DNA from: Shigella phage pSb-1
Length of the DNA: 64,000 nt
Sequence record: KF620435
Strand: one strand, 5' to 3'
Shown here: positions 2,696 through 48,177 of the stretch, piece by piece
Layout of the letters: the number at the start of each line of letters is the position of its first letter
Numbering within the stretch: position 1 is the first letter of the stretch
Position numbers and translations under genes: made by a program
The notes under the pieces: generated by a model
Seen by the model: only the letters and a program-made list of their open reading frames with translations
Told to the model about the DNA's origin: nothing
Database searches by the model: none

Positions 2696-4524
2696 TGACT
2701 TATTCTTATATACCTGTTATAGTGATTTAGACCCAGTACTCTGAGTTTACGGTAAGTGTTATTACCATCCTGCCAAAGTAACTCATACTCCTGCATTGAA
2801 TAGAATGTATATGTTACCTCAAGTTTCTTAGCAGAACCGGAGTTAGAAGCTGTCCTAATATTCTTACGGGTAAGGGTTATATCTCCTGCATACCTGGCTC
2901 GTAGTTGCCCCTGCTTAGCACCAGACCATGCTTGTCCTGAGTGAGTAGTTTCAAATACATAGTTCCAGCCAATAGTCATGTCATACTTGTACCGCTTATT
3001 ACTATGTATCCTAAACTCTCGCTTAGGTATAACAGGATATTCCGGTAGTGGTGGAGGAGTTCCAATAGTATGCCCTTCAGTCCTGTTCCACCATGCTACA
3101 TATTCATCAACTGCATCATTAGCTGCCTGATAACCTGCAATTACTGCTTCTAAAGTCGGGTAGGTTGGGTCAGGTGGAAATGCTTCAGTAGCCATCTGAA
3201 AGAAACGGTAAATGTATTCCTTAGCAGTATCTTCAGGAGAATTAAGAGATACACCGAATGTGCCATAAATGTACTGAATATCACCTATGTCATTATTCTT
3301 CTTAAGCTCTGTCACTACTTTATCAATTTTTCCACCAGTAGCTTTATAAAGAGCTTTCTTACAGTGTGGGTAGATTGGGTCATTTTCTACCCATTGTTTA
3401 TCATTCCTGATTGGAATGAATGGATAGAATCGGTTATCAGTAGCCTCGGTATCAAACAGTGAATCTAGTGCAACGTTACCAGAGTTCTGCTTATAGATAA
3501 GCATCTTAGGTGTACCAACAGCAGTCATCTCTGTATCAGTACGAGTAGTCTGGGATGAGTACTTACGAACCAGTGTCTCTGTGGTTGTAGTGATTGTATC
3601 AGTACGAGTAACACCGCCACCTATATCAACTACATTGGTAGTTACAGTAGTACTGGATTGGATCTCACCAAACTTTCTGTGGGTCATTACCCTGTCAGAT
3701 ACAACTACAGTTACATCATCAGGTTTCTCAGTGAATCCTCTACGATAAACCTTAACGTAGGAATTCCAGTTATCTACACTTGGTTCAGTGACGGTACTAT
3801 CCTCATCAGGTCTACCGTCAGAGTAAACAGAATGAGTATGTATAGTCTTAGTAAGGTTAGTTGTGTTAGCTGTTGTATCACTTGATACGGTAGTCCATAA
3901 CAAAGTGGAGGGTAAGTCATCCTCATCATCATAGACTGTAGTCGGTCCTACTACTGGTGGATTGGTAGAGGGAGATTTATAGAAAGAGTAATCAGCATAG
4001 AGATACAAAGCACCCGGTTCAAAGTTAGTAGGTGTGAATGTAATAGTAGAACCACCATCTAAAGAGGTCATAGTAATTTCATTGGTATCTTCATCAATGT
4101 CTATGTCGAATCGTTCCATGATTCGACTTGGGGCATTCTCATAAAGATACTGGTCACACCATTGTTCAAAATCAGCAAAGCCTATCTCTGCTGCCTGAAC
4201 ATAGACAGACTCTCCAGCAGGTGGTGTAATTTGGCCCTCTATAACAGTAGGGTCAATCTTAGCCAGTACACCTAATGAAGAACCAGCCATACCAACTTCC
4301 GAATCATAGTGGTTCTTACTCCAGCTGGAGAACAGTCGCATACGAATACCCGGCCCATTCAGATAACTATCAGAGATAGTGTCTGCCATAGTGAATCCTG
4401 TATTGGAAATAATGTTACCAATGACTACAGTCTTCATATAGTTAGGACGTTTGTGTATATCCCCTGCCATGTTATAGACAGAGGATGCTACGTATACTTT
4501 GGTCTTCCCACTGAATAAACCCAT
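2563..4524 (-). CDS. virion structural protein (653 aa)
   Basis: Long ORF in the late block; last ~45 residues are Cys/Trp-rich and may be out of frame. Confidence 0.45.
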   Translation of the reverse strand: MGLFSGKTKVYVASSVYNMAGDIHKRPNYMKTVVIGNIISNTGFTMADTISDSYLNGPGIRMRLFSSWSKNHYDSEVGMAGSSLGVLAKIDPTVIEGQITPPAGESVYVQAAEIGFADFEQWCDQYLYENAPSRIMERFDIDIDEDTNEITMTSLDGGSTITFTPTNFEPGALYLYADYSFYKSPSTNPPVVGPTTVYDDEDDLPSTLLWTTVSSDTTANTTNLTKTIHTHSVYSDGRPDEDSTVTEPSVDNWNSYVKVYRRGFTEKPDDVTVVVSDRVMTHRKFGEIQSSTTVTTNVVDIGGGVTRTDTITTTTETLVRKYSSQTTRTDTEMTAVGTPKMLIYKQNSGNVALDSLFDTEATDNRFYPFIPIRNDKQWVENDPIYPHCKKALYKATGGKIDKVVTELKKNNDIGDIQYIYGTFGVSLNSPEDTAKEYIYRFFQMATEAFPPDPTYPTLEAVIAGYQAANDAVDEYVAWWNRTEGHTIGTPPPLPEYPVIPKREFRIHSNKRYKYDMTIGWNYVFETTHSGQAWSGAKQGQLRARYAGDITLTRKNIRTASNSGSAKKLEVTYTFYSMQEYELLWQDGNNTYRKLRVLGLNHYNRYIRISQCTLMLPGQWVMQRRVDSLFHCTLTSTVPCHWFEVLSYPLLVPT

Positions 4525-4525
4525 A

Positions 4526-5368
4526 TTAGTTCAGCCCGTTGTTAGACTTCAGCTTGGTCAGAATGGTATCAATACTTGCGTTAGTGAAGCCATTCGGTGG
4601 GTTCAAGCCTTCATCAATAGTTTTCTGAGTAATCCATGCGTCAGTAAACAGCTTAGATGCTTTAACCTCTGCATCGCGTTGGTAAGAAGTAATCTGTTGA
4701 GAGTACAACTCTTTCTGTTTACCTACAGAACCAGTAACAGTAGCTCCATCGCTACGGGTATCCAGTGTCTGTGCACGTTGTGCTTCTGTCTGCTCAGTAA
4801 GCAATTTAAGCTGTTGAGGTAACATCTGGTCAGCGTTAAACAGTGCAGCACAATACGTTTCAGACTCAGTAGCAATCTTCAACTTAGTAAGAGCATATTC
4901 ACTCTTAGCAGACAGTGCCTGAATCTTAGCTAGTACAAACTGTGCTTTAGAAGTTGCCAATGTAACACGAGCAGTAACTGCCTGAATCTGTGCCAATGCA
5001 GCAGCCCAGTATGCCTGGTCACGACCAAGTAAGAACTGAACAGCATTGCTCATGCAAGATTCCATCATAGCAATGTATGCTTTGGTATATTCACCACCCG
5101 TAATACGGTTAGCTTTAAACTCAGCTTTAAGGTGATTGTGTGCAGATTCCATTAATGCATCAAACGTACCACTGCCACCTACTTCACGGGTAGTAAGGGA
5201 TTCATTGGTTATCTTAGTAATAGCACCAAAGATTGGGGAACCATCTCCACCTGGGATATCCCACTCAGGGCCAGACATATCAATATCAGGAAGGGTAAAG
5301 TCATCACCCTTAGTTAACTCTTCTAGGAGTCGGTTAGCTTCTACCTCAGCAGAACAAGACATAATCAT
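4526..5368 (-). CDS. virion structural protein (280 aa)
   Basis: Tightly packed late-block ORF upstream of the capsid gene. Confidence 0.4.
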
Positions 5369-5438
5369 TCCTCTTGGTTCAAAAAGAAACGGCCCACGGA
5401 GTTACCCCAGTGAGCCGTGTTGAACTGTAGCTTATACG

Positions 5439-6077
5439 TTAATCGTTAAGGCTACCAGCAGCAATCTGTGCTTGAGCCAGTTGAGCTAATTCAGCTTCAG
5501 TCAACGGAGGCAGTACTTCAATGGAGAACTCTCGTGCTTCGGTTGCACGGATATCCGGTAAGCCATTCTTACCTTTACGGGTAGTAATGTTGATGAACTT
5601 GCGTTCTTTAAGGAACTCGTAGATACAGTACGGAATATGATAGCCATTATCAGTCACTTCACCGAATGGAACAAACTTACGTACAGTACCCATGTATTCG
5701 TTAGCTACGGTGATAATCTCACCCGGCAGGTCTTTCTTCTTAGGGTCAAGGTTCTGGATACGTACACGAATCAGTCGAGTCTGTTCTGCACGAATCTTCT
5801 GACCCAGGGTCATCTTCTTAACACCAGCTTCTTGTTTATCACCCAGCGGATTAACAGCAGCTTCTACTACTGGTTCATCTTTTACTTGTGCAGCTTCAAT
5901 CTTCTCACGAAGCTTCTCAACGGAAATGTTGTTAGAGAACTTGATATTCATCAACGTTGCACGTTGCTTAAGAACTTCAAGTTCACTAGGCATTGCAATA
6001 TCGTTAACGGTATCTTCGTTGCCCTGTACGTTCACTTCTACGTCAGTGGTCGGTTTATCGTTAATGCTCATGTTCAT
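5439..6077 (-). CDS. structural protein (212 aa)
   Basis: Late-block ORF immediately downstream of the capsid gene. Confidence 0.4.
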   Translation of the reverse strand: MNMSINDKPTTDVEVNVQGNEDTVNDIAMPSELEVLKQRATLMNIKFSNNISVEKLREKIEAAQVKDEPVVEAAVNPLGDKQEAGVKKMTLGQKIRAEQTRLIRVRIQNLDPKKKDLPGEIITVANEYMGTVRKFVPFGEVTDNGYHIPYCIYEFLKERKFINITTRKGKNGLPDIRATEAREFSIEVLPPLTEAELAQLAQAQIAAGSLND

Positions 6078-28656: not shown

Positions 28657-29007
28657 ATGAAAGAAATCTTAGTATTCACTACCAATGTACTTGGGCAGCA
28701 TACCAATACTGCTGCCAAACTGGCATATAAGAAGCATGGTGCTCGCTGGGGTATGGCCTATGGTCATTACGGTAATAGCTTTGCCATTCCAGTAAGGGAT
28801 GGCAGTGGTAACCGAATTAAAGAAGGTGCTATCTATGGCTTCGTTGAAGGCTTTATTTCCTATGCATCTACTAATCCACAGTGGGATTTCAAAGTAATGG
28901 AAGATGCCCTTCTGGACCCATACCTGTTCAATAATGTCACTGGCAATGTGCTATTGCCAGAAGCATGGCGTAAATACTTAGGGGATGCTTACAATTATTG
29001 GAGTTAA
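28657..29007 (+). CDS. Rossmann-like protein of unknown function (116 aa)
   Basis: Gly-rich motif FTTNVLGQHTNTAAKLAYKKHGARWGMAYGHYGNSFAIP; family not resolved by eye. Confidence 0.3.
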   Translation: MKEILVFTTNVLGQHTNTAAKLAYKKHGARWGMAYGHYGNSFAIPVRDGSGNRIKEGAIYGFVEGFISYASTNPQWDFKVMEDALLDPYLFNNVTGNVLLPEAWRKYLGDAYNYWS

Positions 29008-29055
29008 AGCTGCTCCGCAGCTTTTGGTTATTAATCACATTTAGGAGAATAAGCG

Positions 29056-29871
29056 ATGTACTCATCTATTGAACATCAGAAGCAACTCGAAAAACTATTC
29101 AATAAAAATCAGCTCTTGCCTCGCATGAGGAAGGAATTCGAGGACTCCGAAGAAATTGACTTTAAGGCATTCGCTGCCTATTTAGAAATTGATTATAAGC
29201 TGCTCATTGATGCAATGGTGCAGATTGCCTTACATAAACGTGCCAACATCCAAACTATGATTGGCTCCCTCATGAGTCACTCAGATGATGCTCAGTACAT
29301 CGCTGATTGTCTGTATAAGATGGCAGAGAATGACTGCTTCAACTATGACCCTACCATCGACATGTTCGGTGTTATCTATGAGATTAGTGAAGATGTTCAG
29401 ATGGAATTGGAAGCATTCCAGTACCCATTGCCCATCGTAAGTGCTCCTAAGCCTGTTAAGTGTAACCGTGATACTGGTTACTACGAAAGCAGGGGCAGCA
29501 TCATCCTCAAGAAGAACCATCATGAGATGGATGTCTGTCTTGACCACATCAACCGCATGAATAACCAACGTCTCTGCATTAACTGGGACGTTGCTAACTA
29601 TGTAAAAGACTCCCGTCCTAACATGGATAAACCTAAAGAAGGTGAAACTCGTCAGGACTATGAGAAACGTGTTAAAGCCTTTGAGAAGTACAGCCGTACT
29701 GCTAAGGAAGTAATGGAGTTAGTGACCAAAGAAGGTAATAACTTCTCCTTGGCTCACAAATACGATAAACGTGGGCGTACATATGCCTGTGGTTACCACA
29801 TAAATTATGCAGGTACTTCATGGAATAAGGCAGTGGTAGAATTCGCACAAAAAGAACTCGTGGAGGACTAA
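29056..29871 (+). CDS. phage RNA polymerase II, small subunit (N-terminal part of a split T7-like single-subunit RNAP)
   Basis: C-terminal KRGRTYACGYHINYAG aligns with T7 RNAP WRGRVYAVSMFNPQG; N4 splits its RNAP II the same way. Confidence 0.6.
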   Translation: MYSSIEHQKQLEKLFNKNQLLPRMRKEFEDSEEIDFKAFAAYLEIDYKLLIDAMVQIALHKRANIQTMIGSLMSHSDDAQYIADCLYKMAENDCFNYDPTIDMFGVIYEISEDVQMELEAFQYPLPIVSAPKPVKCNRDTGYYESRGSIILKKNHHEMDVCLDHINRMNNQRLCINWDVANYVKDSRPNMDKPKEGETRQDYEKRVKAFEKYSRTAKEVMELVTKEGNNFSLAHKYDKRGRTYACGYHINYAGTSWNKAVVEFAQKELVED

Positions 29872-30485
29872 TGAAAATCTGCAAGGACTGTGGGGAAACA
29901 AAAGACCTCACAGAGTTCGTACCAAAATCATCTTGCAAAGACGGTTATGAGGTACGGTGTCGTAAATGTCGAGCCTTAAGGTATAACAAAGCTGACCCAG
30001 TATGTATGTTCAGGAAGACCTATCTAACTCAACTAACTCACTCTATAAAAAGAGGACACCCACCACCCAGCTATTCACTAGAGGATTTCTATGAATGGTT
30101 GGATAAGCAACCAAATATCCATCAACTATGGGATGATTATGTGGCGAGTAACTATGCAAAAGACTACAAACCATCCGTAGACCGTATTAATGACCACAAA
30201 CCATATACTCTAGATAACATTCAGCTAATGTCCTGGAAAGAGAATAGAGATAAAGGAGCACGTAGCAAGAAAGAAGGTAACATTGCCACTGCACAACCCG
30301 TTATCGCCTATCATCTAGATGGTACATTCTATAAAGAATTTGCTACTACAGCAGAAGCTGCACGTCATGTAAGTGGTAGAACGTGGGGTATTATAACAGT
30401 AGCCAATGGCATCCCTGTGAAAGATGGTAGAGGTCATATTTATAACCCCAAAACGTACAAAGGCTTTAAGTGGGCCTGGAAATAA
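29871..30485 (+). CDS. HNH homing endonuclease with C-terminal NUMOD-like DNA-binding motif
   Basis: Cys pairs at N-terminus, HNH-type DRINDHKPYTLDNIQLMSWKEN, then QPVIAYHLDGTFYKEFATTAEAARHVSG. Confidence 0.65.
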   Translation: MKICKDCGETKDLTEFVPKSSCKDGYEVRCRKCRALRYNKADPVCMFRKTYLTQLTHSIKRGHPPPSYSLEDFYEWLDKQPNIHQLWDDYVASNYAKDYKPSVDRINDHKPYTLDNIQLMSWKENRDKGARSKKEGNIATAQPVIAYHLDGTFYKEFATTAEAARHVSGRTWGIITVANGIPVKDGRGHIYNPKTYKGFKWAWK

Positions 30486-30541
30486 TCATCCAATAAGCAG
30501 GCTCTCCATAGTGGGGAGCCAAGAAGCAAAAGGAACATAAA

Positions 30542-31758
30542 ATGCAACTGTTAACCGCTCGTGAATACCTGAAAGTAGATATTGCTAATAACTATGGCTT
30601 AGATAAAAAGACATGGGATGAACGTATTAGCTGGTTCGATGAGAATGAAGCTAACCTGCTTAATCTGGTAGATGAAGCTGAAGATTCTGCTCTGTTCTTT
30701 GCTGGTGTAAATGCATGGAAAGATATGAAAGCCGGTAAGCCTATTGGTTATGCTGTAGCTCTGGATGCTACATCATCTGGCTTACAGTTACTGGCCTGCC
30801 TGACTGGTGACCGTTCTGCTGCTGAACTGTGTAACGTAGTTAACTACATGGGAGAGAATGGTAAGCCATTACGTCGTGATGCTTATACAGTCATCTACCA
30901 CAAGATGCTGGACATCCTTGGTGAAGCATCTCGTATTAAACGTAGTGACACTAAGCAGGCAGTTATGACTGCATTCTACGGTTCAGAAGCCAAGCCTAAA
31001 GAAGTATTCGGTGAAGGTATTCGTCTCAAGACTTTTGAAAATGTAATGGAAACTGTTGCTAGTGGTCCTTGGGCACTGAACAAGTTCTTACTGCAATGTG
31101 GTAACCCGGATGCTAACCGTTACATATGGGTACTGCCTGACAACTTCCACGCTGTCATTAAGGTCATGGTTCCAGAAGTACAAACTGTTAACTTCTTAGG
31201 TAAGCCATTCGACATCACTCGTATGGTTCAGGGCACTGAAGAGAAGACTCGTATGCTCTCTGCTAACATCACCCACTCTATTGATGGATGGTGGTACGTG
31301 AGATGCTGCGTCGTTGTAACTTCGACCGTGACTTAGTGGAAGCTGTGCGAGAACTCTGCGATGAAGGTCCATCAGAATATGGGGAAATTGCAGGTAATCT
31401 GGAGAAGGTACAGGAGTTATGGAGCCATTATGAGAAATCTGGCTTCTTATCCTTATCAATCCTGGATTATCTTGACCCATGTACTATTGCTTATGTAGAT
31501 CGTCAGGTAGTAGCAGATATGATTGACACTATGCCTAAGAAACCATTCCCTGTAATGACTGTACACGACTGCTTCCGTTGCCATCCTAACTACGGTAATG
31601 ACCTGCGTCGTCAGTACAATCAGATTCTGTCTGACATTGCTAAGAGTGACCTACTGGGCTTCATCCTGTCTCAGGTACTGGGACAAGAGTTCTCTGCTGG
31701 TAAGCTGGATGACAGCCTCTGGCAGGACATCCTTGAAACAGACTATGCATTAAGTTAA
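30542..31758 (+). CDS. phage RNA polymerase II, large subunit (T7-like palm/fingers), frameshifted (fragments 30542..31336 and 31288..31758)
   Basis: ALDATSSGLQ (motif A), RSDTKQAVMTAFYGS (motif B), VMTVHDCF (motif C); frame change after HSIDG near 31286..31290. Confidence 0.7.
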
Positions 31759-31764
31759 TAAACT

Positions 31765-31799
31765 AGCCTCACTCCCGAAGGAGTGAGGCTTATTTTTTG
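31765..31799 (+). terminator. rho-independent terminator
   Basis: 11-bp stem AGCCTCACTCC-CGAA-GGAGTGAGGCT followed by TATTTTTTG. Confidence 0.65.
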
Positions 31800-33743: not shown

Positions 33744-33947
33744 ATGGCAAGCATTGACTCCTTGACCGTATGTAATTCACGTCAAGCTCGTAACTTTATT
33801 ATCCGTGCCCTAAAAGCAGGCAACGTACCGTTCCTGACTTCATCACCCGGCATGGGTAAATCTGCAATCATTCGTTCTATTGCAGAAGAATTTGGCATGA
33901 AGCTGATAGACCACCGTCTATCTACTTCTGCCCCGGAAGACCTTAAC
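33744..33947 (+). CDS. MoxR-like AAA ATPase, exon 1 (Walker A)
   Basis: SSPGMGKS P-loop; frame ends at TAA 33948..33950 just after EDLN, where MoxR-type proteins continue. Confidence 0.6.
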
Positions 33948-34816
33948 TAATAGGGCTTTGTGGGGGTGACCTCACATCGAAAGCTATCTAAATGGGGAAA
34001 CTCCTACTATTACAGGGAAACCATGATACACTCTGGTTTCCCAATAGAGGACAATCCCATGCTAAATATTAATGAAAGTTGGAAAGACATTGTTGGTTAT
34101 GAAGGTTACTATGAAGTCTCTACGCATGGTCGCGTTAGAAATACCCGTACAGGTATGATAAAGAACCAATGTGTACAGACTAGCGGTAAGTATCTACAAG
34201 TCAGTTTGTGGAAAGGCAACAAAGAAAAAAGATGTTTAATACATCGCTTAGTTGCTATAGCCTTCATTCCTAACCCTGAAGACAAGCCTCAAGTAAACCA
34301 TTTAGACAAAAATGATAAGAACAACCATGTTCAAAATTTGGAATGGGTAACCATATCCGAGAATCATTTACATGCATTTGCTAATGGTAGAAAAGGCTCC
34401 AAATCCCGACTAGGTGAAAAAACTAGTAAAGCCTCTCAGTACCGATATGTGTACTGGGATACCAAAAGAGCTGTTTGGAAAGCATCTATAAAGATAGATG
34501 GCAAAACAGTAAACATTGGTAGATTCAATACTGACCTAGAGGCAGCTTTAGCCGCTGATGAGGCAATTGATTCCTGGGGCTGGGATAGAATTAAAAACTT
34601 TCAATAATTAAATGCCTAACGACTATCGAAAACACGTAGTGATACGGAAGTGAGTAGAGTAGGGTGCAAGCCAATGGCACTCGAAAAGATAGCCACCCGG
34701 ACAGGTAAAGCTGAGGGTGTTGATATAGTCTGGTCTGCGTAGTAATACGTAGCTGTATATGTCCAACTCGCATATACGGGTAGAGCCTTGCAAACTCTAC
34801 TGAACATAACGTAGTG
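33948..34816 (+). mobile_element. group I intron (IA2-like) with HNH homing endonuclease ORF; boundaries within a few nt
   Basis: Splits the ATPase gene between Walker A and Walker B; second exon has no start codon; GACTAT (34619..34624) pairs with ATAGTC in GATATAGTCTGG (~34746..34757), as in P7 of T4 td-type introns. Confidence 0.6.
34059..34607 (+). CDS. intron-encoded HNH homing endonuclease (NUMOD4 + HNH + AP2-like)
   Basis: WKDIVGYEGYYEVSTHGRVRN; HRLVAIAF...NHLDKNDKNNHVQNLEWVTISEN; C-terminal YRYVYWDTKRAVWKASIKIDGKTVNIGRF; AGAGGA RBS before ATG 34059. Confidence 0.7.
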   Translation: MLNINESWKDIVGYEGYYEVSTHGRVRNTRTGMIKNQCVQTSGKYLQVSLWKGNKEKRCLIHRLVAIAFIPNPEDKPQVNHLDKNDKNNHVQNLEWVTISENHLHAFANGRKGSKSRLGEKTSKASQYRYVYWDTKRAVWKASIKIDGKTVNIGRFNTDLEAALAADEAIDSWGWDRIKNFQ

Positions 34817-35664
34817 GTCTGCCATTCCGTAATGGTGACCGTGCAGAGTTTATTCCATTCGCTGACTTATTCCCTATTGAAGGGGATGAAGTACCAGAAG
34901 GATATAACGGGTGGCTCCTGTTCCTTGATGAGTTCCCATCCGCTCGTAAAGAAGTAATAGCTGCTGCATACAAACTAATTCTAGACCGTATGACAGGTCA
35001 GAAAAAACTTCATCCTAATGTGATGATTGTCTGTGCTGGTAACAAAGCTACTGACCGTGCCATTGTTAACCCGCTAGGCACTGCAATGCAGTCTCGTGTG
35101 GTCCATTTTGAAATGGAACTTAACTTCGACATCTTTGTTGAAGACGTAATGATTCCTCAACAATGGGATGAACGTCTGGTTGCATTCTTACATGCTAACC
35201 CTGGTTATCTGCATGACTTCGACCCGGCCCATAAGAACAAAACATTCTGTTGTCCTCGTACTTGGGACTTTGTTAATAAAGACCTCAAGAACCAGCCAGA
35301 AGGTGCTCTTCCTGATGAAGATTCCATCTACTATGCAGGTCACGTTACTGCTGGTAAGGCTACAGAATTTGTTCAGTTCACTCAGGTATATAATCGTATC
35401 ATTACGATTGAAAAGGTAGTCAAAGACCCACTGGGCTGTGCACTACCGGAAGATAACAACCTGTGCTGGGCTACCGTTAACCATCTGGCTAACAAAACTA
35501 CTGAAGAGAACTTTGTTGATGTTCTTCAGTACATTGAACGCTTTAAAACGTTCACCCATAAGATTCTGTACTTCCGTACAGTAGGCAATGCATTACCAGA
35601 TCTTCAGGCTACTCCTGAATGGCGTAAGGCTGCTGCTAATATCTCTCGTTACATTCACGGATAA
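34816..35664 (+). CDS. MoxR-like AAA ATPase, exon 2 (Walker B onward)
   Basis: In-frame continuation GLPFRNGDRAEF...GWLLFLDEF (Walker B) with no initiation codon until far downstream. Confidence 0.6.
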   Translation, partial: GLPFRNGDRAEFIPFADLFPIEGDEVPEGYNGWLLFLDEFPSARKEVIAAAYKLILDRMTGQKKLHPNVMIVCAGNKATDRAIVNPLGTAMQSRVVHFEMELNFDIFVEDVMIPQQWDERLVAFLHANPGYLHDFDPAHKNKTFCCPRTWDFVNKDLKNQPEGALPDEDSIYYAGHVTAGKATEFVQFTQVYNRIITIEKVVKDPLGCALPEDNNLCWATVNHLANKTTEENFVDVLQYIERFKTFTHKILYFRTVGNALPDLQATPEWRKAAANISRYIHG

Positions 35665-45551: not shown

Positions 45552-45923
45552 ATGTCTAAAGTATTCAGAAGTAATCGCAAAGCAACTGATGAAGACATCA
45601 TTCGTATGAATGCTGTTGGTCTGTCCCTCGCAACTATCGCTAAGACGTTGGGGGTTCACCCCACTACGGTTACTTTGCGATTGCGTTCTCTAAATATTGA
45701 ACCAGCCGACACACGTCGGACGTTCATGGAAAACGTATTACGTCCTTTACCAACCCATGTGGCTGATTGGCTATCAGAACAAGTTGGCCCTAAGTATGAG
45801 ATTCGCTCATATGTAAGGGACTTGATTCTGGAGGCATATAATAATCGCCACCTTAACCAAGAGAGTGAGCATGACAAGTTCATCCGTTTGTACGCTGGAA
45901 AGAACCGGGATGAATTGGGGTGA
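45552..45923 (+). CDS. small DNA-binding protein candidate (123 aa)
   Basis: HTH-like segment AVGLSLATIAKTLGVHPTTVTLRLR. Confidence 0.3.
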   Translation: MSKVFRSNRKATDEDIIRMNAVGLSLATIAKTLGVHPTTVTLRLRSLNIEPADTRRTFMENVLRPLPTHVADWLSEQVGPKYEIRSYVRDLILEAYNNRHLNQESEHDKFIRLYAGKNRDELG

Positions 45924-46389
45924 CATATTTACTTATCGGAACGGTAAATTGTACTGGAAGGTAAAAGCAGCGGCGCATACCGTAGTTGGCTCGGAAGCCG
46001 GGTGCTATGACAAATCCTCCGGGTATGTTCTAGTACGCTACAAACGAAGACTACGGAGAGCACACTGCATAATATGGGAAATGCACAATGGTCCTATACC
46101 TAAAGGTATGCTCATTGACCATCTAGATAGGGTAAGGACCAATAATCACATTGGAAACCTTCGCTTAGGTGGTCAAGACCTCAACCAAAAGAATCGTAGT
46201 AAACAATTTAATAACTCTTCCGGAATAACAGGTATTTCCTGGGATAAGGAAAGAAGTAAGTGGAATGCTAAGATTCAGGTGGAGGGCAAAACTATTAATC
46301 TAGGTCGCTTTACGGACTTAGATGAAGCTGCCAGAGTCCGCTATCAAGCAGAAAAAGACTATGGCTTCACTCCAACACACGGGAAATAA
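45910..46389 (+). CDS. free-standing HNH homing endonuclease with AP2-like domain
   Basis: HCIIWEMHNGPIPKGMLIDHLDRVRTNNHIGNLRLG; C-terminal GISWDKERSKWNAKIQVEGKTINLGRF. Confidence 0.65.
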   Translation: MNWGDIFTYRNGKLYWKVKAAAHTVVGSEAGCYDKSSGYVLVRYKRRLRRAHCIIWEMHNGPIPKGMLIDHLDRVRTNNHIGNLRLGGQDLNQKNRSKQFNNSSGITGISWDKERSKWNAKIQVEGKTINLGRFTDLDEAARVRYQAEKDYGFTPTHGK

Positions 46390-46391
46390 CA

Positions 46392-46835
46392 ATGTCAGAT
46401 ATTATCACCCAAACCAAAAAATGGTTTGAAATCGCAGTACCAAATCCGACGAGTAAGAACATTAGTACCCAGATGGGTTGCCATCTGGAAGAAGTAGAAG
46501 AAATGCTTCAGACCATTTATCCAAATGGTATCTACGATGCAGAATTGCTACAACGTGCGCAAGATGCTCTTACAAATCTGGCAAATCATATGAAGCGTAA
46601 AGCTGATGCCTACCGTATTGATGTTAGTACCGACCTGCTGGACTCACTGGCAGACCAGATTGTTACAGCAACTGGCGTCGGTACTTTCCTTGGGATGAAT
46701 GTCCCCGGAGCATTGGCTGAAGTCAATCGCTCAAACTATTCTAAGTTTGAAGATGGCGAACCTGTCTTCAATGAGAATAAGAAAGTTATGAAAGGGAAAG
46801 ACTACACTCCCCCAGATTTAACCCCTTACATCTAA
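46392..46835 (+). CDS. MazG-like nucleotide pyrophosphohydrolase candidate
   Basis: Acidic helical protein with HLEEVEEM-type motif; weak by-eye match. Confidence 0.35.
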   Translation: MSDIITQTKKWFEIAVPNPTSKNISTQMGCHLEEVEEMLQTIYPNGIYDAELLQRAQDALTNLANHMKRKADAYRIDVSTDLLDSLADQIVTATGVGTFLGMNVPGALAEVNRSNYSKFEDGEPVFNENKKVMKGKDYTPPDLTPYI

Positions 46836-46868: not shown

Positions 46869-48177
46869 ATGTTTTCCAAACCTACCAAAGCCCCACTGAA
46901 CAAGGGGCAAGAAGCGGTTGCGAAGGAGTTCTTCGACTTCCTGCTCGACCCTAATGCTACCGAATTCAATATTAGTGGCCCAGGGGGAACTGGCAAGACA
47001 TTCCTGATGTCGCACCTCATTGATGACACTATGCCTGCATATATGGAAACTTGCTCCCTTATGGGAACCAAGCCTCTGTATAACGAAGTGTTATGACTGC
47101 GACCACGAACAAGGCTGCTGAAGTTCTGGCTCAGGCTACTGGACGCCCAACGTCTACCTATCACTCCTTCCAGGGCTGATTGTTAAGAATGACTTTAAAA
47201 CTGGTGAGGCTAATGTCGTACCTTCTAAGTCATTCAATATTAAGAAGAACAAAATCATCTTCGTAGATGAAGCATCCATGATTGACCGTCAGTTACTTAA
47301 GTATGCTCGTGAAGGTACTCACCAGTGCAAACTGGTATTCGTAGGTGATGCTTCTCAGCTTCTGCCTGTTAAAGAGAATAAGTCTCCAGTGTATGCAGGC
47401 AATATCCCAACACACTATCTGACTGAACAGATGCGTACCGATGCACCGGAACTTAAAGCATTGCACCAGCAATTGCGTGATACGGTAGAAGGTAAGACAG
47501 GCTTCCTGCCTATTAAATGTATTCCAGGCATCATTGACTGGGTACAAGGAGAAGAGATGGAGAAACTGGTTCTCAGTCACTTCACTCAACCTACCAACAG
47601 CCGTATTGTTGCTTACACGAATGATCAGGTTATTAATTACAATAACTACATTCGTGAAGCTAATGGCTACGTGGGCGAGTACTCCATTGGTGAACAGTTA
47701 GTATCTAACTCTGCTGTTCGCTTGGGTGTGGAAGACCGTCTGTCTATTGAACAAGACGTAAAACTCATTGACCAGGATAGTAGTACTCGCATGATTCCAG
47801 TTACAGGTGATCTGGAACTAGAAGTTCGTGATAGTACTCTGGACCTTGGTTATGGTGGTATTGTAAGTGAAGTTCCAGTACCTACTGACCCAGAATACTT
47901 CAACCGTTTGGTTAAGTGGCTAGGTAAAGAGAAGAACTGGGAACCTTACTTCCGTCTTAAAGAAACCATCCCAGACCTACGTGCTACTCATGCATGTACT
48001 GTCCATAAATCGCAAGGCTCTACTTACGACACAATCTTCATTGATGCAGATGACCTCTCAAGCTGTCGCCAACCAGATATGGTTGCTCGTCTGCTTTACG
48101 TCGCTGTGTCTCGTGCCCGTAAGCGAGTAGTGTTCTATGGCAATCTTGCCAGTAAGTACGGTGGTCTAACTTTCTAA
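46869..48177 (+). CDS. Dda/RecD-like SF1 DNA helicase, frameshifted twice (~47084..47096 and ~47170..47179)
   Basis: Walker A GPGGTGKTF (frame 1), TATTNKAAEVL...TYHSFQG (frame 2), IIFVDEASMI Walker B and TVHKSQGSTYD (frame 3). Confidence 0.7.

What the first reader, a model, noticed from the sequence alone, without database searches (positions are those of the whole stretch)
29056..31758. HNH homing endonuclease gene inserted between the two RNA polymerase II subunit genes
The T7-like RNAP is encoded as two polypeptides whose break point matches a contiguous position in T7 RNAP, as in N4. Exactly between them sits a 204-aa HNH endonuclease gene (29871..30485). With the intron-borne HNH (34059..34607) and a third free-standing HNH (45910..46389) next to the helicase, this genome carries three homing endonucleases, all beside core transcription or replication genes.
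Basis: partly seen in the sequence, partly recalled or inferred. Interest (0 to 1): 0.5.

Follow-up and report, generated by a model that had tools for sequence, protein, structure and literature searches.

The report
Homing endonuclease gene between phage RNAP subunits
A small selfish nuclease-like gene sits exactly between the two genes for the split RNA polymerase of an N4-like phage (Shigella phage pSb-1); it is real and looks recently mobile, but this arrangement has already been described in related phages, so it is ordinary.

Summary
The window is Shigella phage pSb-1, a G7C-like N4-like phage.

The insert is exactly ORF-sized and lies at a hot spot. Related phages have the site empty, filled by small ORFs, or filled by three other endonuclease genes. 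Only one of 50,697 phage records (HK2) carries this allele. Two metagenomic phages share a 1,456-nt identical block centred on it inside diverged flanks.

So the reading as a free-standing homing endonuclease gene is supported. Cleavage is untested.

The arrangement is already published for G7C-type phages. Interest is low to moderate.

The parts
29006..29024 (+). Terminator-like hairpin upstream of the gp15-ORF-gp16 unit
   Evidence: Consensus scan only.
29056..29871 (+). RNAPII small subunit gene (N4 gp15 / RNAP1 orthologue), 271 aa. This is the short C-terminal haplotype (..LVED*) found in all alleles that carry this endonuclease gene.
29862..29866 (+). GGAGG Shine-Dalgarno-like motif for the endonuclease ORF, embedded in the last codons of gp15, 4 nt before the ATG. 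Alleles without an endonuclease gene read GAAGAT or GATGAT here.
   Evidence: Read directly from the sequence. Its function is inferred.
29871..30485 (+). 204-aa free-standing homing-endonuclease-like gene. Zinc ribbon: C4, C7, C30, C33. Beta-beta-alpha-metal core: residues 101-135 (S102, D104, R105, Y112, N116, N125). C-terminal I-HmuI/NUMOD1-like DNA-binding domain: residues 144-203. The start ATG overlaps the gp15 TAA (TAATG).
30486..30541 (+). Conserved 56-nt spacer before gp16. It contains a hairpin (stem 30500-30508 / 30512-30520, loop TAG) and the gp16 ribosome-binding site. It is present in empty-site and most occupied alleles and forms the right border of the insertion.
30542..31336 (+). 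RNAPII large subunit gene (N4 gp16 / RNAP2 orthologue), N-terminal 248 codons plus a 16-codon out-of-frame tail.
31284..31287 (+). Site of the 1-nt deletion (GGG or GGA in relatives, GG here) that frameshifts gp16.
31288..31758 (+). Remainder of gp16 (156 codons, including the VHDCF motif C) in the shifted frame. It starts at the native Met249.
31765..31790 (+). Strong intrinsic-terminator-like hairpin plus T-run, ending the gp15-ORF-gp16 unit.

Best explanation
The 204-aa ORF is a free-standing (intron-less, intein-less) homing endonuclease gene lodged in the intergenic slot between the two RNAPII subunit genes.

Shown:
- It is a real gene under strong purifying selection.
- It has a zinc ribbon, a His-Me-finger (beta-beta-alpha-metal) core and an I-HmuI-type DNA-binding tail.
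- It is co-oriented with gp15 and gp16, with no terminator or promoter inside the unit.
- Its ATG overlaps the gp15 stop codon, and a GGAGG lies in the last gp15 codons.
- It is inserted at one exact point that is empty or differently occupied in relatives.
- Genomes that carry it share a flank haplotype only within about 150-200 nt.

Inferred: it is made early, together with RNAPII. In a mixed infection it nicks or cuts the corresponding region of a co-infecting phage genome that lacks it. The target is most likely in the 3' end of gp15 or at the junction, because distant homologues always lie just 3' of an RNAPII subunit gene. Recombinational repair from the genome that carries it then copies the ORF together with short flanks.

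Catalysis probably does not use the canonical His, which is Arg105 here. The invariant omega-loop Tyr112, with D104 and N125 as metal ligands, may do the job as in PacI.
For: Gene reality and constraint: 87 homologues; dN/dS 0.048-0.069.

Family and fold:
- phrog_1035, E=4e-32.
- Family profile against I-HmuI (1u3e), E=2e-5. It aligns D104-R105 with D74-H75 and N125 with N96, and continues through the C-terminal DNA-binding domain.
- AF2 model with pLDDT 92.5.
- Invariant C4, C7, C30, C33, S102, D104, Y112 and N125.

Site polymorphism:
- Empty-site alleles (EC1-UPM, phi G17, N4-type) and at least 9 occupancy states share the same left border.
- This allele occurs in 1 of 50,697 phage records. 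It forms a cluster of 22 sequences at 90% identity, against 714 in the gp15 cluster.

RNAPII association of the family: homologues at 32-77% identity lie directly after the gp15 homologue in G7C, pVco-5 and the metagenome loci L016, L018 and L019. In XC38 the homologue lies after the RNAP large-subunit gene.

Discordant histories: in L019 the ORF is 47% identical to this one but gp15 only 27%; in L016 the ORF is 77% identical but gp15 95%.

Recent transfer: the shared flank haplotype decays within about 200 nt, and a 1,456-nt block of 100% identity centred on the ORF lies between otherwise diverged phages from different samples.

Precedent: PMC5418858. For PacI's tyrosine: PMC5714182 and PMC3384342.
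Against: - No cleavage data exist for any member of this family.
- The general-base His of HNH enzymes is replaced by Arg in at least 90% of members, and Pfam HNH models do not match.
- The slot also holds non-nuclease small ORFs, so ordinary homologous recombination could move cassettes without any nuclease.
- Between pSb-1 and HK2 the ORF has diverged about as much as its flanks (dS 0.27 against 0.22-0.36), so in these two lineages it is not a very recent arrival.
- Mosaic identical blocks are common in G7C-like phages generally (bioRxiv 10.1101/542787).
Confidence: 0.65

Rival explanations
1. It is a catalytically dead or domesticated His-Me-finger protein. Having lost the catalytic His, it would act only as a sequence-specific DNA-binding protein, for example a regulator or an accessory factor of the adjacent RNAPII. 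It would be kept for the phage's benefit rather than for its own spread.
For: - Arg replaces the canonical His in nearly all members.
- His-less groups of the superfamily without a substitute Tyr are considered inactive (PMC5714182).
- dN/dS is as low as for the essential polymerase subunits.
- The ORF is always co-located and co-transcribed with RNAPII genes.
Against: - It is dispensable. It is absent from N4, from EC1-UPM and from most Gamaleyaviruses, which have the same RNAPII.
- The metal-ligand positions D104 and N125, and an omega-loop Tyr, are invariant. That is hard to explain for a mere DNA binder and matches the active, His-less PacI.
- One member (P0003) has His at the canonical position.
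Confidence: 0.15
2. It is passive cargo in a hypervariable intergenic slot. The ORF may be a working nuclease with some other role, such as host or competitor DNA attack. Its patchy distribution and the shared flanks would then come only from general homologous recombination between co-infecting G7C-like phages, not from self-promoted homing.
For: - The same slot carries four kinds of small non-nuclease ORFs (36, 53, 79-80 and 38 aa) in most relatives.
- G7C-like phages show 22 loci of module swapping and pervasive recombination.
- The region next to the junction is hypervariable in all allele classes (within-class identity of the genomes lacking this ORF is 0.73-0.80).
Against: - Three unrelated or distantly related endonuclease lineages converge on the same point (phrog_1035 in two deep branches, plus two HNH_3/AP2 types).
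- The phrog_1035 lineage keeps its position next to RNAPII genes across genera whose polymerase genes share only 27-47% identity. This fits target-site specificity better than chance recombination.
Confidence: 0.15
3. It is an endonuclease VII (a T4 gp49-type Holliday-junction resolvase), as the GenBank record names it.
For: Only the propagated product name of the record and the label of phrog_1035.
Against: - There is no match to Pfam Endonuclease_7 even at E up to 10.
- The DHDH-type motif is absent.
- A C-terminal NUMOD1/I-HmuI-like site-specific DNA-binding domain is present.
Confidence: 0.03

Closest known systems
G7C gp15.1 and the 'G7C-type' RNAP1-HNH-RNAP2 arrangement (Amgarten et al. 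2017, PMC5418858; annotation of HQ259105)
   Same: It belongs to the same PHROG family (phrog_1035) and shares the domain order. It sits in the same intergenic slot between the RNAPII subunit genes of a Gamaleyavirus.
   Different: It is only 32% identical. The G7C-type cassette also replaces the 56-nt spacer and abuts the gp16 ATG, whereas the pSb-1 type leaves the spacer intact. Neither has been tested biochemically.
I-HmuI (PDB 1U3E), the intron-encoded HNH nicking homing endonuclease of Bacillus phage SPO1
   Different: I-HmuI has the canonical Asp74-His75, while here the pair is Asp104-Arg105. I-HmuI is intron-borne and lacks the N-terminal Cys4 ribbon. The Pfam HNH_3 model does not hit the pSb-1 protein.
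R.PacI (PDB 3LDY/3M7K), a His-less HNH restriction enzyme that uses an omega-loop tyrosine
   Different: PacI is a 142-aa homodimeric restriction enzyme with two zinc sites and no NUMOD-type tail. Only one Cys4 site is conserved here. Whether Tyr112 is equivalent to the PacI tyrosine was not checked by superposition.
Free-standing homing endonucleases of T4-like phages (Seg and Mob proteins; mobE in the split nrdA of Aeromonas phage Aeh1)
   Same: These too are intergenic endonuclease genes between conserved or split essential genes. They spread by break repair with co-conversion of flanks. This comparison rests on established knowledge, and the Aeh1 case is cited in PMC5418858.
   Different: They belong to different nuclease families (GIY-YIG, canonical HNH). 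Here the RNAP split is ancient and is also present in phages whose site is empty, so this insertion did not create the split.

Membership tests
HNH / His-Me finger (beta-beta-alpha-metal) nuclease superfamily | Beta-beta-alpha-metal fold | tested here: met
HNH / His-Me finger (beta-beta-alpha-metal) nuclease superfamily | Catalytic general-base histidine at the end of strand 1 | tested here: not met
   Arg105 aligns with I-HmuI His75. Arg is present in at least 90% of 53 family members, and only P0003 has His.
HNH / His-Me finger (beta-beta-alpha-metal) nuclease superfamily | Metal-ligand Asp/Asn positions | tested here: met
   D104 and N125 are invariant and align with I-HmuI D74 and N96.
HNH / His-Me finger (beta-beta-alpha-metal) nuclease superfamily | Match to a curated HNH sequence model (Pfam HNH, HNH_3, etc.) | tested here: not met
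   There is no Pfam hit at E up to 10 except a spurious DUF6510, and no NCBIfam hit.
PacI-like His-less His-Me fingers (group 20 of PMC5714182) | No catalytic His, with a tyrosine in the omega loop taking its role | tested here: inconclusive
PacI-like His-less His-Me fingers (group 20 of PMC5714182) | Two zinc-bound motifs per subunit | tested here: not met
   Only one Cys4 set (C4, C7, C30, C33) is conserved.
I-HmuI-type homing endonucleases (HNH_3 with NUMOD modules) | Nuclease core followed by a NUMOD/HTH DNA-binding module | tested here: met
   The profile alignment to 1u3e runs through residues 64-172, including the C-terminal domain. PF07453 (which I identify as NUMOD1) and PF22083 hits are precomputed for several homologues. 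The model has a beta-beta-alpha-alpha-beta tail at residues 144-203.
Free-standing homing endonuclease gene (functional class) | Sporadic presence at one precise site, with empty-site alleles in close relatives | tested here: met
Free-standing homing endonuclease gene (functional class) | Co-conversion of flanking sequence or evidence of lateral transfer | tested here: met
   The flank haplotype is shared only within about 200 nt. A 1,456-nt identical tract lies in diverged backgrounds. Identities of the ORF and of its flanks are discordant. General recombination is not excluded as the cause.
Free-standing homing endonuclease gene (functional class) | Site-specific cleavage of the allele lacking the gene, and super-Mendelian inheritance | not testable with these tools
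   This needs biochemistry and mixed infections.
T4 endonuclease VII (Pfam Endonuclease_7) | Match to the family model or fold, and the DHDH motif | tested here: not met
N4-type heterodimeric RNA polymerase II (gp15 + gp16) | Orthologues of both subunits, non-overlapping and contiguous relative to single-subunit RNAP | tested here: met
   6DT7_A at E=2e-117 and 6DT7_B at E=1e-187. phrog_414 positions 227-423 and 429-596.
N4-type heterodimeric RNA polymerase II (gp15 + gp16) | Intact large-subunit reading frame | tested here: not met
   A 1-nt deletion after 31285 breaks the frame. The deposited protein is a truncated 264-aa form. This is probably a sequencing error, because the helicase gene of the same record has two more single-base deletions.

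The most novel reading that the evidence does not exclude
The phrog_1035 proteins (pSb-1 204-aa ORF, G7C gp15.1, the rV5 'endonuclease VII' genes) would be an uncharacterised lineage of homing endonucleases. In this reading they have swapped the universal HNH histidine for a PacI-like tyrosine-based mechanism (D-R ... Y ... N ... N). One branch would be specialised on the RNAPII subunit genes across Schitoviridae. A related S-x-D-K..GY..N..N family sits inside RNAP2 in Vibrio phage pVco-5 and Acinetobacter phage XC38. If so, this would be the first homing endonuclease family with a tyrosine-initiated beta-beta-alpha-metal active site, and a source of new DNA specificities.
Probability: 0.35. 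Interest if true: 0.5.

Novelty: new member of a known kind. Interest (0 to 1): 0.3.

Why it matters
For phage genomics it is a tidy textbook case. It offers an exactly delimited homing-endonuclease cassette, a natural series of empty and alternatively filled sites, and a visible co-conversion tract, all next to an essential split polymerase. That makes the gp15/gp16 junction of G7C-like coliphages a convenient system for measuring intron-less homing and cassette competition.

The only point that goes beyond what is published is the non-canonical active site: Arg in place of the catalytic His, plus an invariant loop Tyr, with PacI as the closest fold. If confirmed, it would extend tyrosine-dependent His-Me chemistry to homing endonucleases.

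Practically, the work also shows two problems in the deposited record. The product name 'endonuclease VII' is unsupported. The pSb-1 record carries frameshifts in at least two essential genes.

Tried and rejected
- Pfam and NCBIfam scans of the 204-aa protein gave nothing usable.
- The Rfam gathering-threshold scan of the whole window found only a tRNA.
- The pSb-1 accession I recalled from memory (KF620435) is not in the annotated collections. The exact-protein contig look-up for P0001 found no record. The identity of the window therefore rests on exact protein matches.
- The PacI structure paper (PMC2886031) is not held. The equivalence of Tyr112 with the PacI tyrosine therefore rests on two secondary sources and on loop position.
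- I looked for transposon-like terminal inverted repeats or target-site duplications around the ORF and found none.
- I looked for an internal promoter or terminator and found none.
- I tested whether the spacer motif CATCCAAWAAG recurs in the window as a regulatory element. It gave 4 matches against 2.9 expected, which is not significant.
- I considered that the 53-aa, 79-aa and 36-aa ORFs of other alleles are decayed endonuclease fragments. There is no BLASTP similarity to any of the endonucleases, so I rejected this.
- I considered that a second 264-aa gp16 fragment in metagenomes (P0126) shares the pSb-1 frameshift. It is instead the C-terminal exon product of the known g16 intron allele.
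- I considered that the helicase gene is split by an intron. This was rejected: it has two single-base deletions relative to G7C and no Rfam hit.
Full report
**Identity of the window.** Three of the four ORF products tested from this region are exact matches to proteins of Shigella phage pSb-1: AHB79471.1 (gp15-like), AHB79472.1 (named 'endonuclease VII') and AHB79473.1 ('RNA polymerase', 264 aa). The fourth, the 156-aa product of 31288..31758, is not in the collection. The closest records in the phage collection are G7C-like N4-like coliphages of the genus Gamaleyavirus, at about 90-95% nucleotide identity.

**Check of the observation.**
- 29056..29871 encodes a 271-aa orthologue of N4 RNAP1 (PDB 6DT7 chain A, E=2e-117; phrog_2166).
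- 30542..31758 corresponds to N4 RNAP2 (6DT7 chain B, E=1e-187 for the intact ECBP1 orthologue).
- Against a T7-type RNAP profile (phrog_414) the two proteins cover positions 227-423 and 429-596.
- Between them, 29871..30485 is a 204-aa ORF whose ATG overlaps the gp15 stop codon (TAATG).

Relative to HK2, ECBP1 and G7C, one base is missing in GATGG[G/A]ATGG after position 31285. The gene therefore reads as 30542..31336 plus 31288..31758. The GenBank protein is the truncated 264-aa form. The helicase gene of the same record has two further single-base deletions relative to G7C, after 47088 and 47175. All other assemblies carrying this endonuclease gene have an intact gp16 of 405-406 aa or an intron-type gp16. 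I therefore regard the frameshift as most likely a sequencing error, but this cannot be proven here.

**What the 204-aa protein is.**
- Pfam and NCBIfam do not recognise it.
- PHROGs places it in phrog_1035 at E=4e-32, together with G7C gp15.1 at E=2e-30. The two are 32% identical over 183 residues.
- An alignment of 53 homologues has these invariant residues: C4, C7, C30, C33 (a Cys4 zinc ribbon), Y68, W76, S102, D104, Y112, N125 and A163. R105, N116 and others are nearly invariant.
[quoted passage not shown] The alignment runs from the nuclease core through the C-terminal DNA-binding domain. It puts D104-R105 on I-HmuI D74-H75 and N125 on N96.
- An AlphaFold2 model is confident (pLDDT 92.5). 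It shows the expected beta(101-105)-loop-beta(117-121)-alpha(122-135) unit, followed by a beta-beta-alpha-alpha-beta domain.

The protein is therefore a member of the His-Me finger (HNH) superfamily by fold and remote homology, but with a non-canonical active site. The general-base His is Arg in nearly every member; one member, P0003, has His. PacI is the documented case of a His-less HNH enzyme in which a tyrosine in the loop between the two strands takes over (PMC5714182 and PMC3384342). The invariant Tyr112 lies in exactly that loop. A related family found inside RNAP2 of Vibrio phage pVco-5 and Acinetobacter phage XC38 shows the same pattern, S-I-D-K ... G-Y ... N ... N-R-x-K. The tyrosine mechanism is an inference; I could not superpose the structures. 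The record's name 'endonuclease VII' is not supported: there is no Endonuclease_7 match, and T4 endonuclease VII is absent from the fold-search lists.

**Anatomy of the insertion.** The empty-site allele of EC1-UPM reads ...GAAGATTAA|TCATACAATAAGCAGGCTCTCCATAGTGGGGAGCC...ATG(gp16). In pSb-1 the same two borders are separated by 614 nt that are nothing but the ORF.
- The 56-nt spacer, with a 9-bp/3-nt hairpin (30500-30520; -16 kcal/mol, z=-2.5) and the gp16 ribosome-binding site, is retained.
- There are no terminal repeats or target-site duplications.
- There is no promoter or terminator between gp15 and gp16. Terminator-like hairpins bracket the unit at 29006-29024 and 31765-31790.
- All nine alleles of this lineage that I retrieved have the same junction, GTGGAGGACTAATGAAAAT, and a gp15 one codon shorter (271 against 272 aa). 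These are pSb-1, HK2, seven metagenomic or SRA assemblies, and the 77% variant L016.
- The GGAGG in the last gp15 codons (29862-29866) is a Shine-Dalgarno-like motif for the ORF. Alleles without an endonuclease gene read GAAGAT, GATGAT or GATGAG there. Alleles with other endonuclease genes also read GAGGA. The functional cassette thus reaches a few codons into gp15.

**Distribution.**
- A tblastn search of 50,697 phage records finds this allele (96% amino-acid identity) only in Escherichia phage HK2. Every other hit is below 60%.
- With the ORF removed, the junction matches 158 records. Fetching one representative per span class shows the following states in Gamaleyavirus:

| Occupant of the site | Examples |
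|---|---|
| Empty | EC1-UPM, phi G17, and N4-type phages |
| 36-aa ORF | CU10EC |
| 53-aa ORF (phrog_15352), the commonest | ECBP1, Bp4 and others |
| 79-aa ORF | ZQ2 and others |
| 38 + 80 aa ORFs | E20 |
| 53 + 79 aa ORFs | IME11 |
| 168-aa HNH_3/AP2-type gene, type 1 | PW8, Mimir124 |
| 168-aa HNH_3/AP2-type gene, type 2 | UE-M6; 78% identical to the one in the Enquatrovirus Jura |
| 193-aa G7C type | G7C, ST4, Bas96, PGN829.1, Moonfish |
| 204-aa pSb-1 type | pSb-1, HK2 |

- Class membership of records that I did not fetch is inferred from span length only.
- The small ORFs have no similarity to the nucleases.
- The 90% cluster of the ORF has 22 member sequences, against 714 for gp15.

**Evidence for movement.**
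- Homologues of this lineage lie directly after the gp15 homologue in phages whose gp15 is 95%, 47% and 27% identical to that of pSb-1. The ORF itself is 77%, 56% and 47% identical. The histories of the ORF and its host gene are thus discordant in both directions.
- Vibrio phage pVco-5 has a 34% homologue in the same slot. Acinetobacter phage XC38 has one just after its RNAP large-subunit gene.
- Among seven genomes carrying the pSb-1-type allele, identity within the group exceeds identity to genomes lacking it only in the last 150-200 nt of gp15 (0.90 against 0.73-0.83) and in the first 150 nt to the right (0.95-0.98 against 0.80-0.88). Further out the difference vanishes.
- Two assemblies from different samples (L025, L026) share a 1,456-nt block of 100% identity centred on the ORF. 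It is embedded in sequence with 2-38 differences per 100 nt.
- These are the signatures expected of homing with co-conversion. General recombination, which is rampant in G7C-like phages (bioRxiv 10.1101/542787), is not excluded.
- Between pSb-1 and HK2 the ORF has diverged like its flanks (dS 0.27 against 0.22-0.36). dN/dS is 0.069, so the gene is maintained by selection and is not decaying. A 128-aa N-terminally truncated copy does exist in one assembly (P0104).

**Mechanism proposed (inferred).** The ORF is transcribed with gp15 and gp16 as an early gene and translated from the SD embedded in gp15. In mixed infections the protein recognises a site at or near the 3' end of gp15 or the junction in genomes that lack it. 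It then nicks or cuts the DNA using a single metal held by D104 and N125, with Tyr112 (or water activated in another way) as the nucleophile. Repair from the genome that carries the ORF copies it together with about 0.2-0.8 kb of flanks. Its own allele would be protected by the insertion and by the changed gp15 3' end.

**Comparison with what is known.**
- The heterodimeric N4 RNAPII is solved (6DT7).
- The presence of an HNH gene between RNAP1 and RNAP2 in G7C and in roseophage EE36P1 is published (PMC5418858). So are the range of zero to eight spacer genes and the idea that an endonuclease insertion may have split an ancestral single-subunit RNAP.
- G7C gp15.1 is annotated as a 'putative HNH homing endonuclease'.
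- A spliced group I intron in g16 at QAV|MTAFYGS has been shown experimentally in G7C-like phages. The 143-aa and 264-aa gp16 fragments I saw in metagenomes match that allele.
- The finding is thus a further, 32%-divergent member of a described arrangement.
- The split of the polymerase was not caused by this insertion, since empty-site phages have the same split.

- 33960/34059..34607 has NUMOD4, HNH_3 and AP2 domains. It lies in an 868-nt insert (33944..34811) that interrupts the N4 gp24-like ATPase gene in frame relative to ECBP1 (PEDL|SGLPF). A sub-threshold group I intron match lies at 34463..34752 (26.8 bits, E=2e-4). Only PW8 shares the whole insert among 56 records.
- 45910..46389 is HNH_3 (E=8e-16). 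It is missing from all the best-matching relatives (at most 82% of the query is covered). It lies two genes upstream of the helicase: a 147-aa ORF, orthologous by position to G7C gp36, intervenes.
- No further homologue of any of these nucleases is present in the 64-kb window.

**Verdict.** It is an ordinary feature of phage genomes, already annotated and already discussed for this genus. The modestly new points are:
- the His-less, PacI-like active-site pattern of the family;
- the exact cassette borders, with an SD borrowed from gp15;
- the catalogue of at least nine alternative occupants of the site;
- the identical transfer tract;
- the unsupported 'endonuclease VII' label and the frameshifts in the deposited record.

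Interest 0.3.

Noticed in passing
window 31284-31287 (gp16), 47088 and 47175 (helicase gp37, 46869..48177): Three single-base deletions relative to relatives frameshift two essential genes of this record. They break RNAP2 into 264-aa and 156-aa ORFs and the helicase into three frames. The downstream gp16 ORF happens to start exactly at native Met249. These are most likely sequencing errors in the deposited pSb-1 genome.
   Followed up: partly
window 33944-34811 (inside the ATPase gene 33744..35664): An 868-nt insert interrupts the N4 gp24-like ATPase gene in frame (PEDL|SGLPF compared with ECBP1). It carries a NUMOD4/HNH_3/AP2 ORF (33960..34607) and a sub-threshold Rfam group I intron match (34463..34752, 26.8 bits, E=2e-4). 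Only phage PW8 shares it among 56 related records. Exon 2 starts near 34812, not at the first ATG (34990).
   Followed up: partly
window 45910-46389: The third HNH_3/AP2 ORF is absent from all the best-matching relatives. It sits between an HTH protein gene (45552..45923) and a 147-aa ORF (46392..46835) that is orthologous by position to G7C gp36 (annotated there as an NTP pyrophosphohydrolase family protein; no Pfam hit here). It is therefore two genes upstream of the helicase, not directly next to it.
   Followed up: partly
window 30486-30541, hairpin 30500-30520: The 56-nt spacer before gp16 contains a 9-bp stem and 3-nt loop hairpin (GGCTCTCCA-TAG-TGGGGAGCC). It is almost invariant from N4-type phages (Jura) to Gamaleyaviruses, more conserved than the neighbouring coding ends, yet it is deleted in G7C-type alleles. 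Its function is unknown. It is not followed by a T-run, and its upstream motif is not repeated in the window beyond chance.
   Followed up: partly
L022-L024 (gp16 343 aa + HNH_3 214 aa), L015 Moonfish 4811-5455, L025/L026 688-1164, L004 pVco-5 4223-4771, L005 XC38 1411-1938: The RNAPII operon of N4-like phages is crowded with endonuclease genes. There is an HNH_3 gene upstream of gp15 in some genomes and an HNH_3 gene in the 3' part of gp16 in others. There is also the known intron at QAV|MTAFYGS (143-aa + 264-aa pieces P0119/P0126). In pVco-5 and XC38, a zinc-ribbon S-x-D-K..GY..N..N ORF lies between two RNAP2 pieces.
   Followed up: partly
protein P0104 (128 aa, on a 74,785-nt contig labelled Salmonella enterica): This is an N-terminally truncated copy of the same endonuclease, starting at the equivalent of M77. 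It is either a decaying copy or a gene-calling artefact, on what is probably a phage contig deposited as bacterial.
   Followed up: no
window 31338-31400 versus L001 and L003 (gp16 codons about 262-330): The middle of gp16 exists in two strongly divergent haplotypes. pSb-1 has the ECBP1 type, while HK2, which carries the same endonuclease gene, has the G7C type. This shows recombination breakpoints inside the polymerase gene.
   Followed up: no
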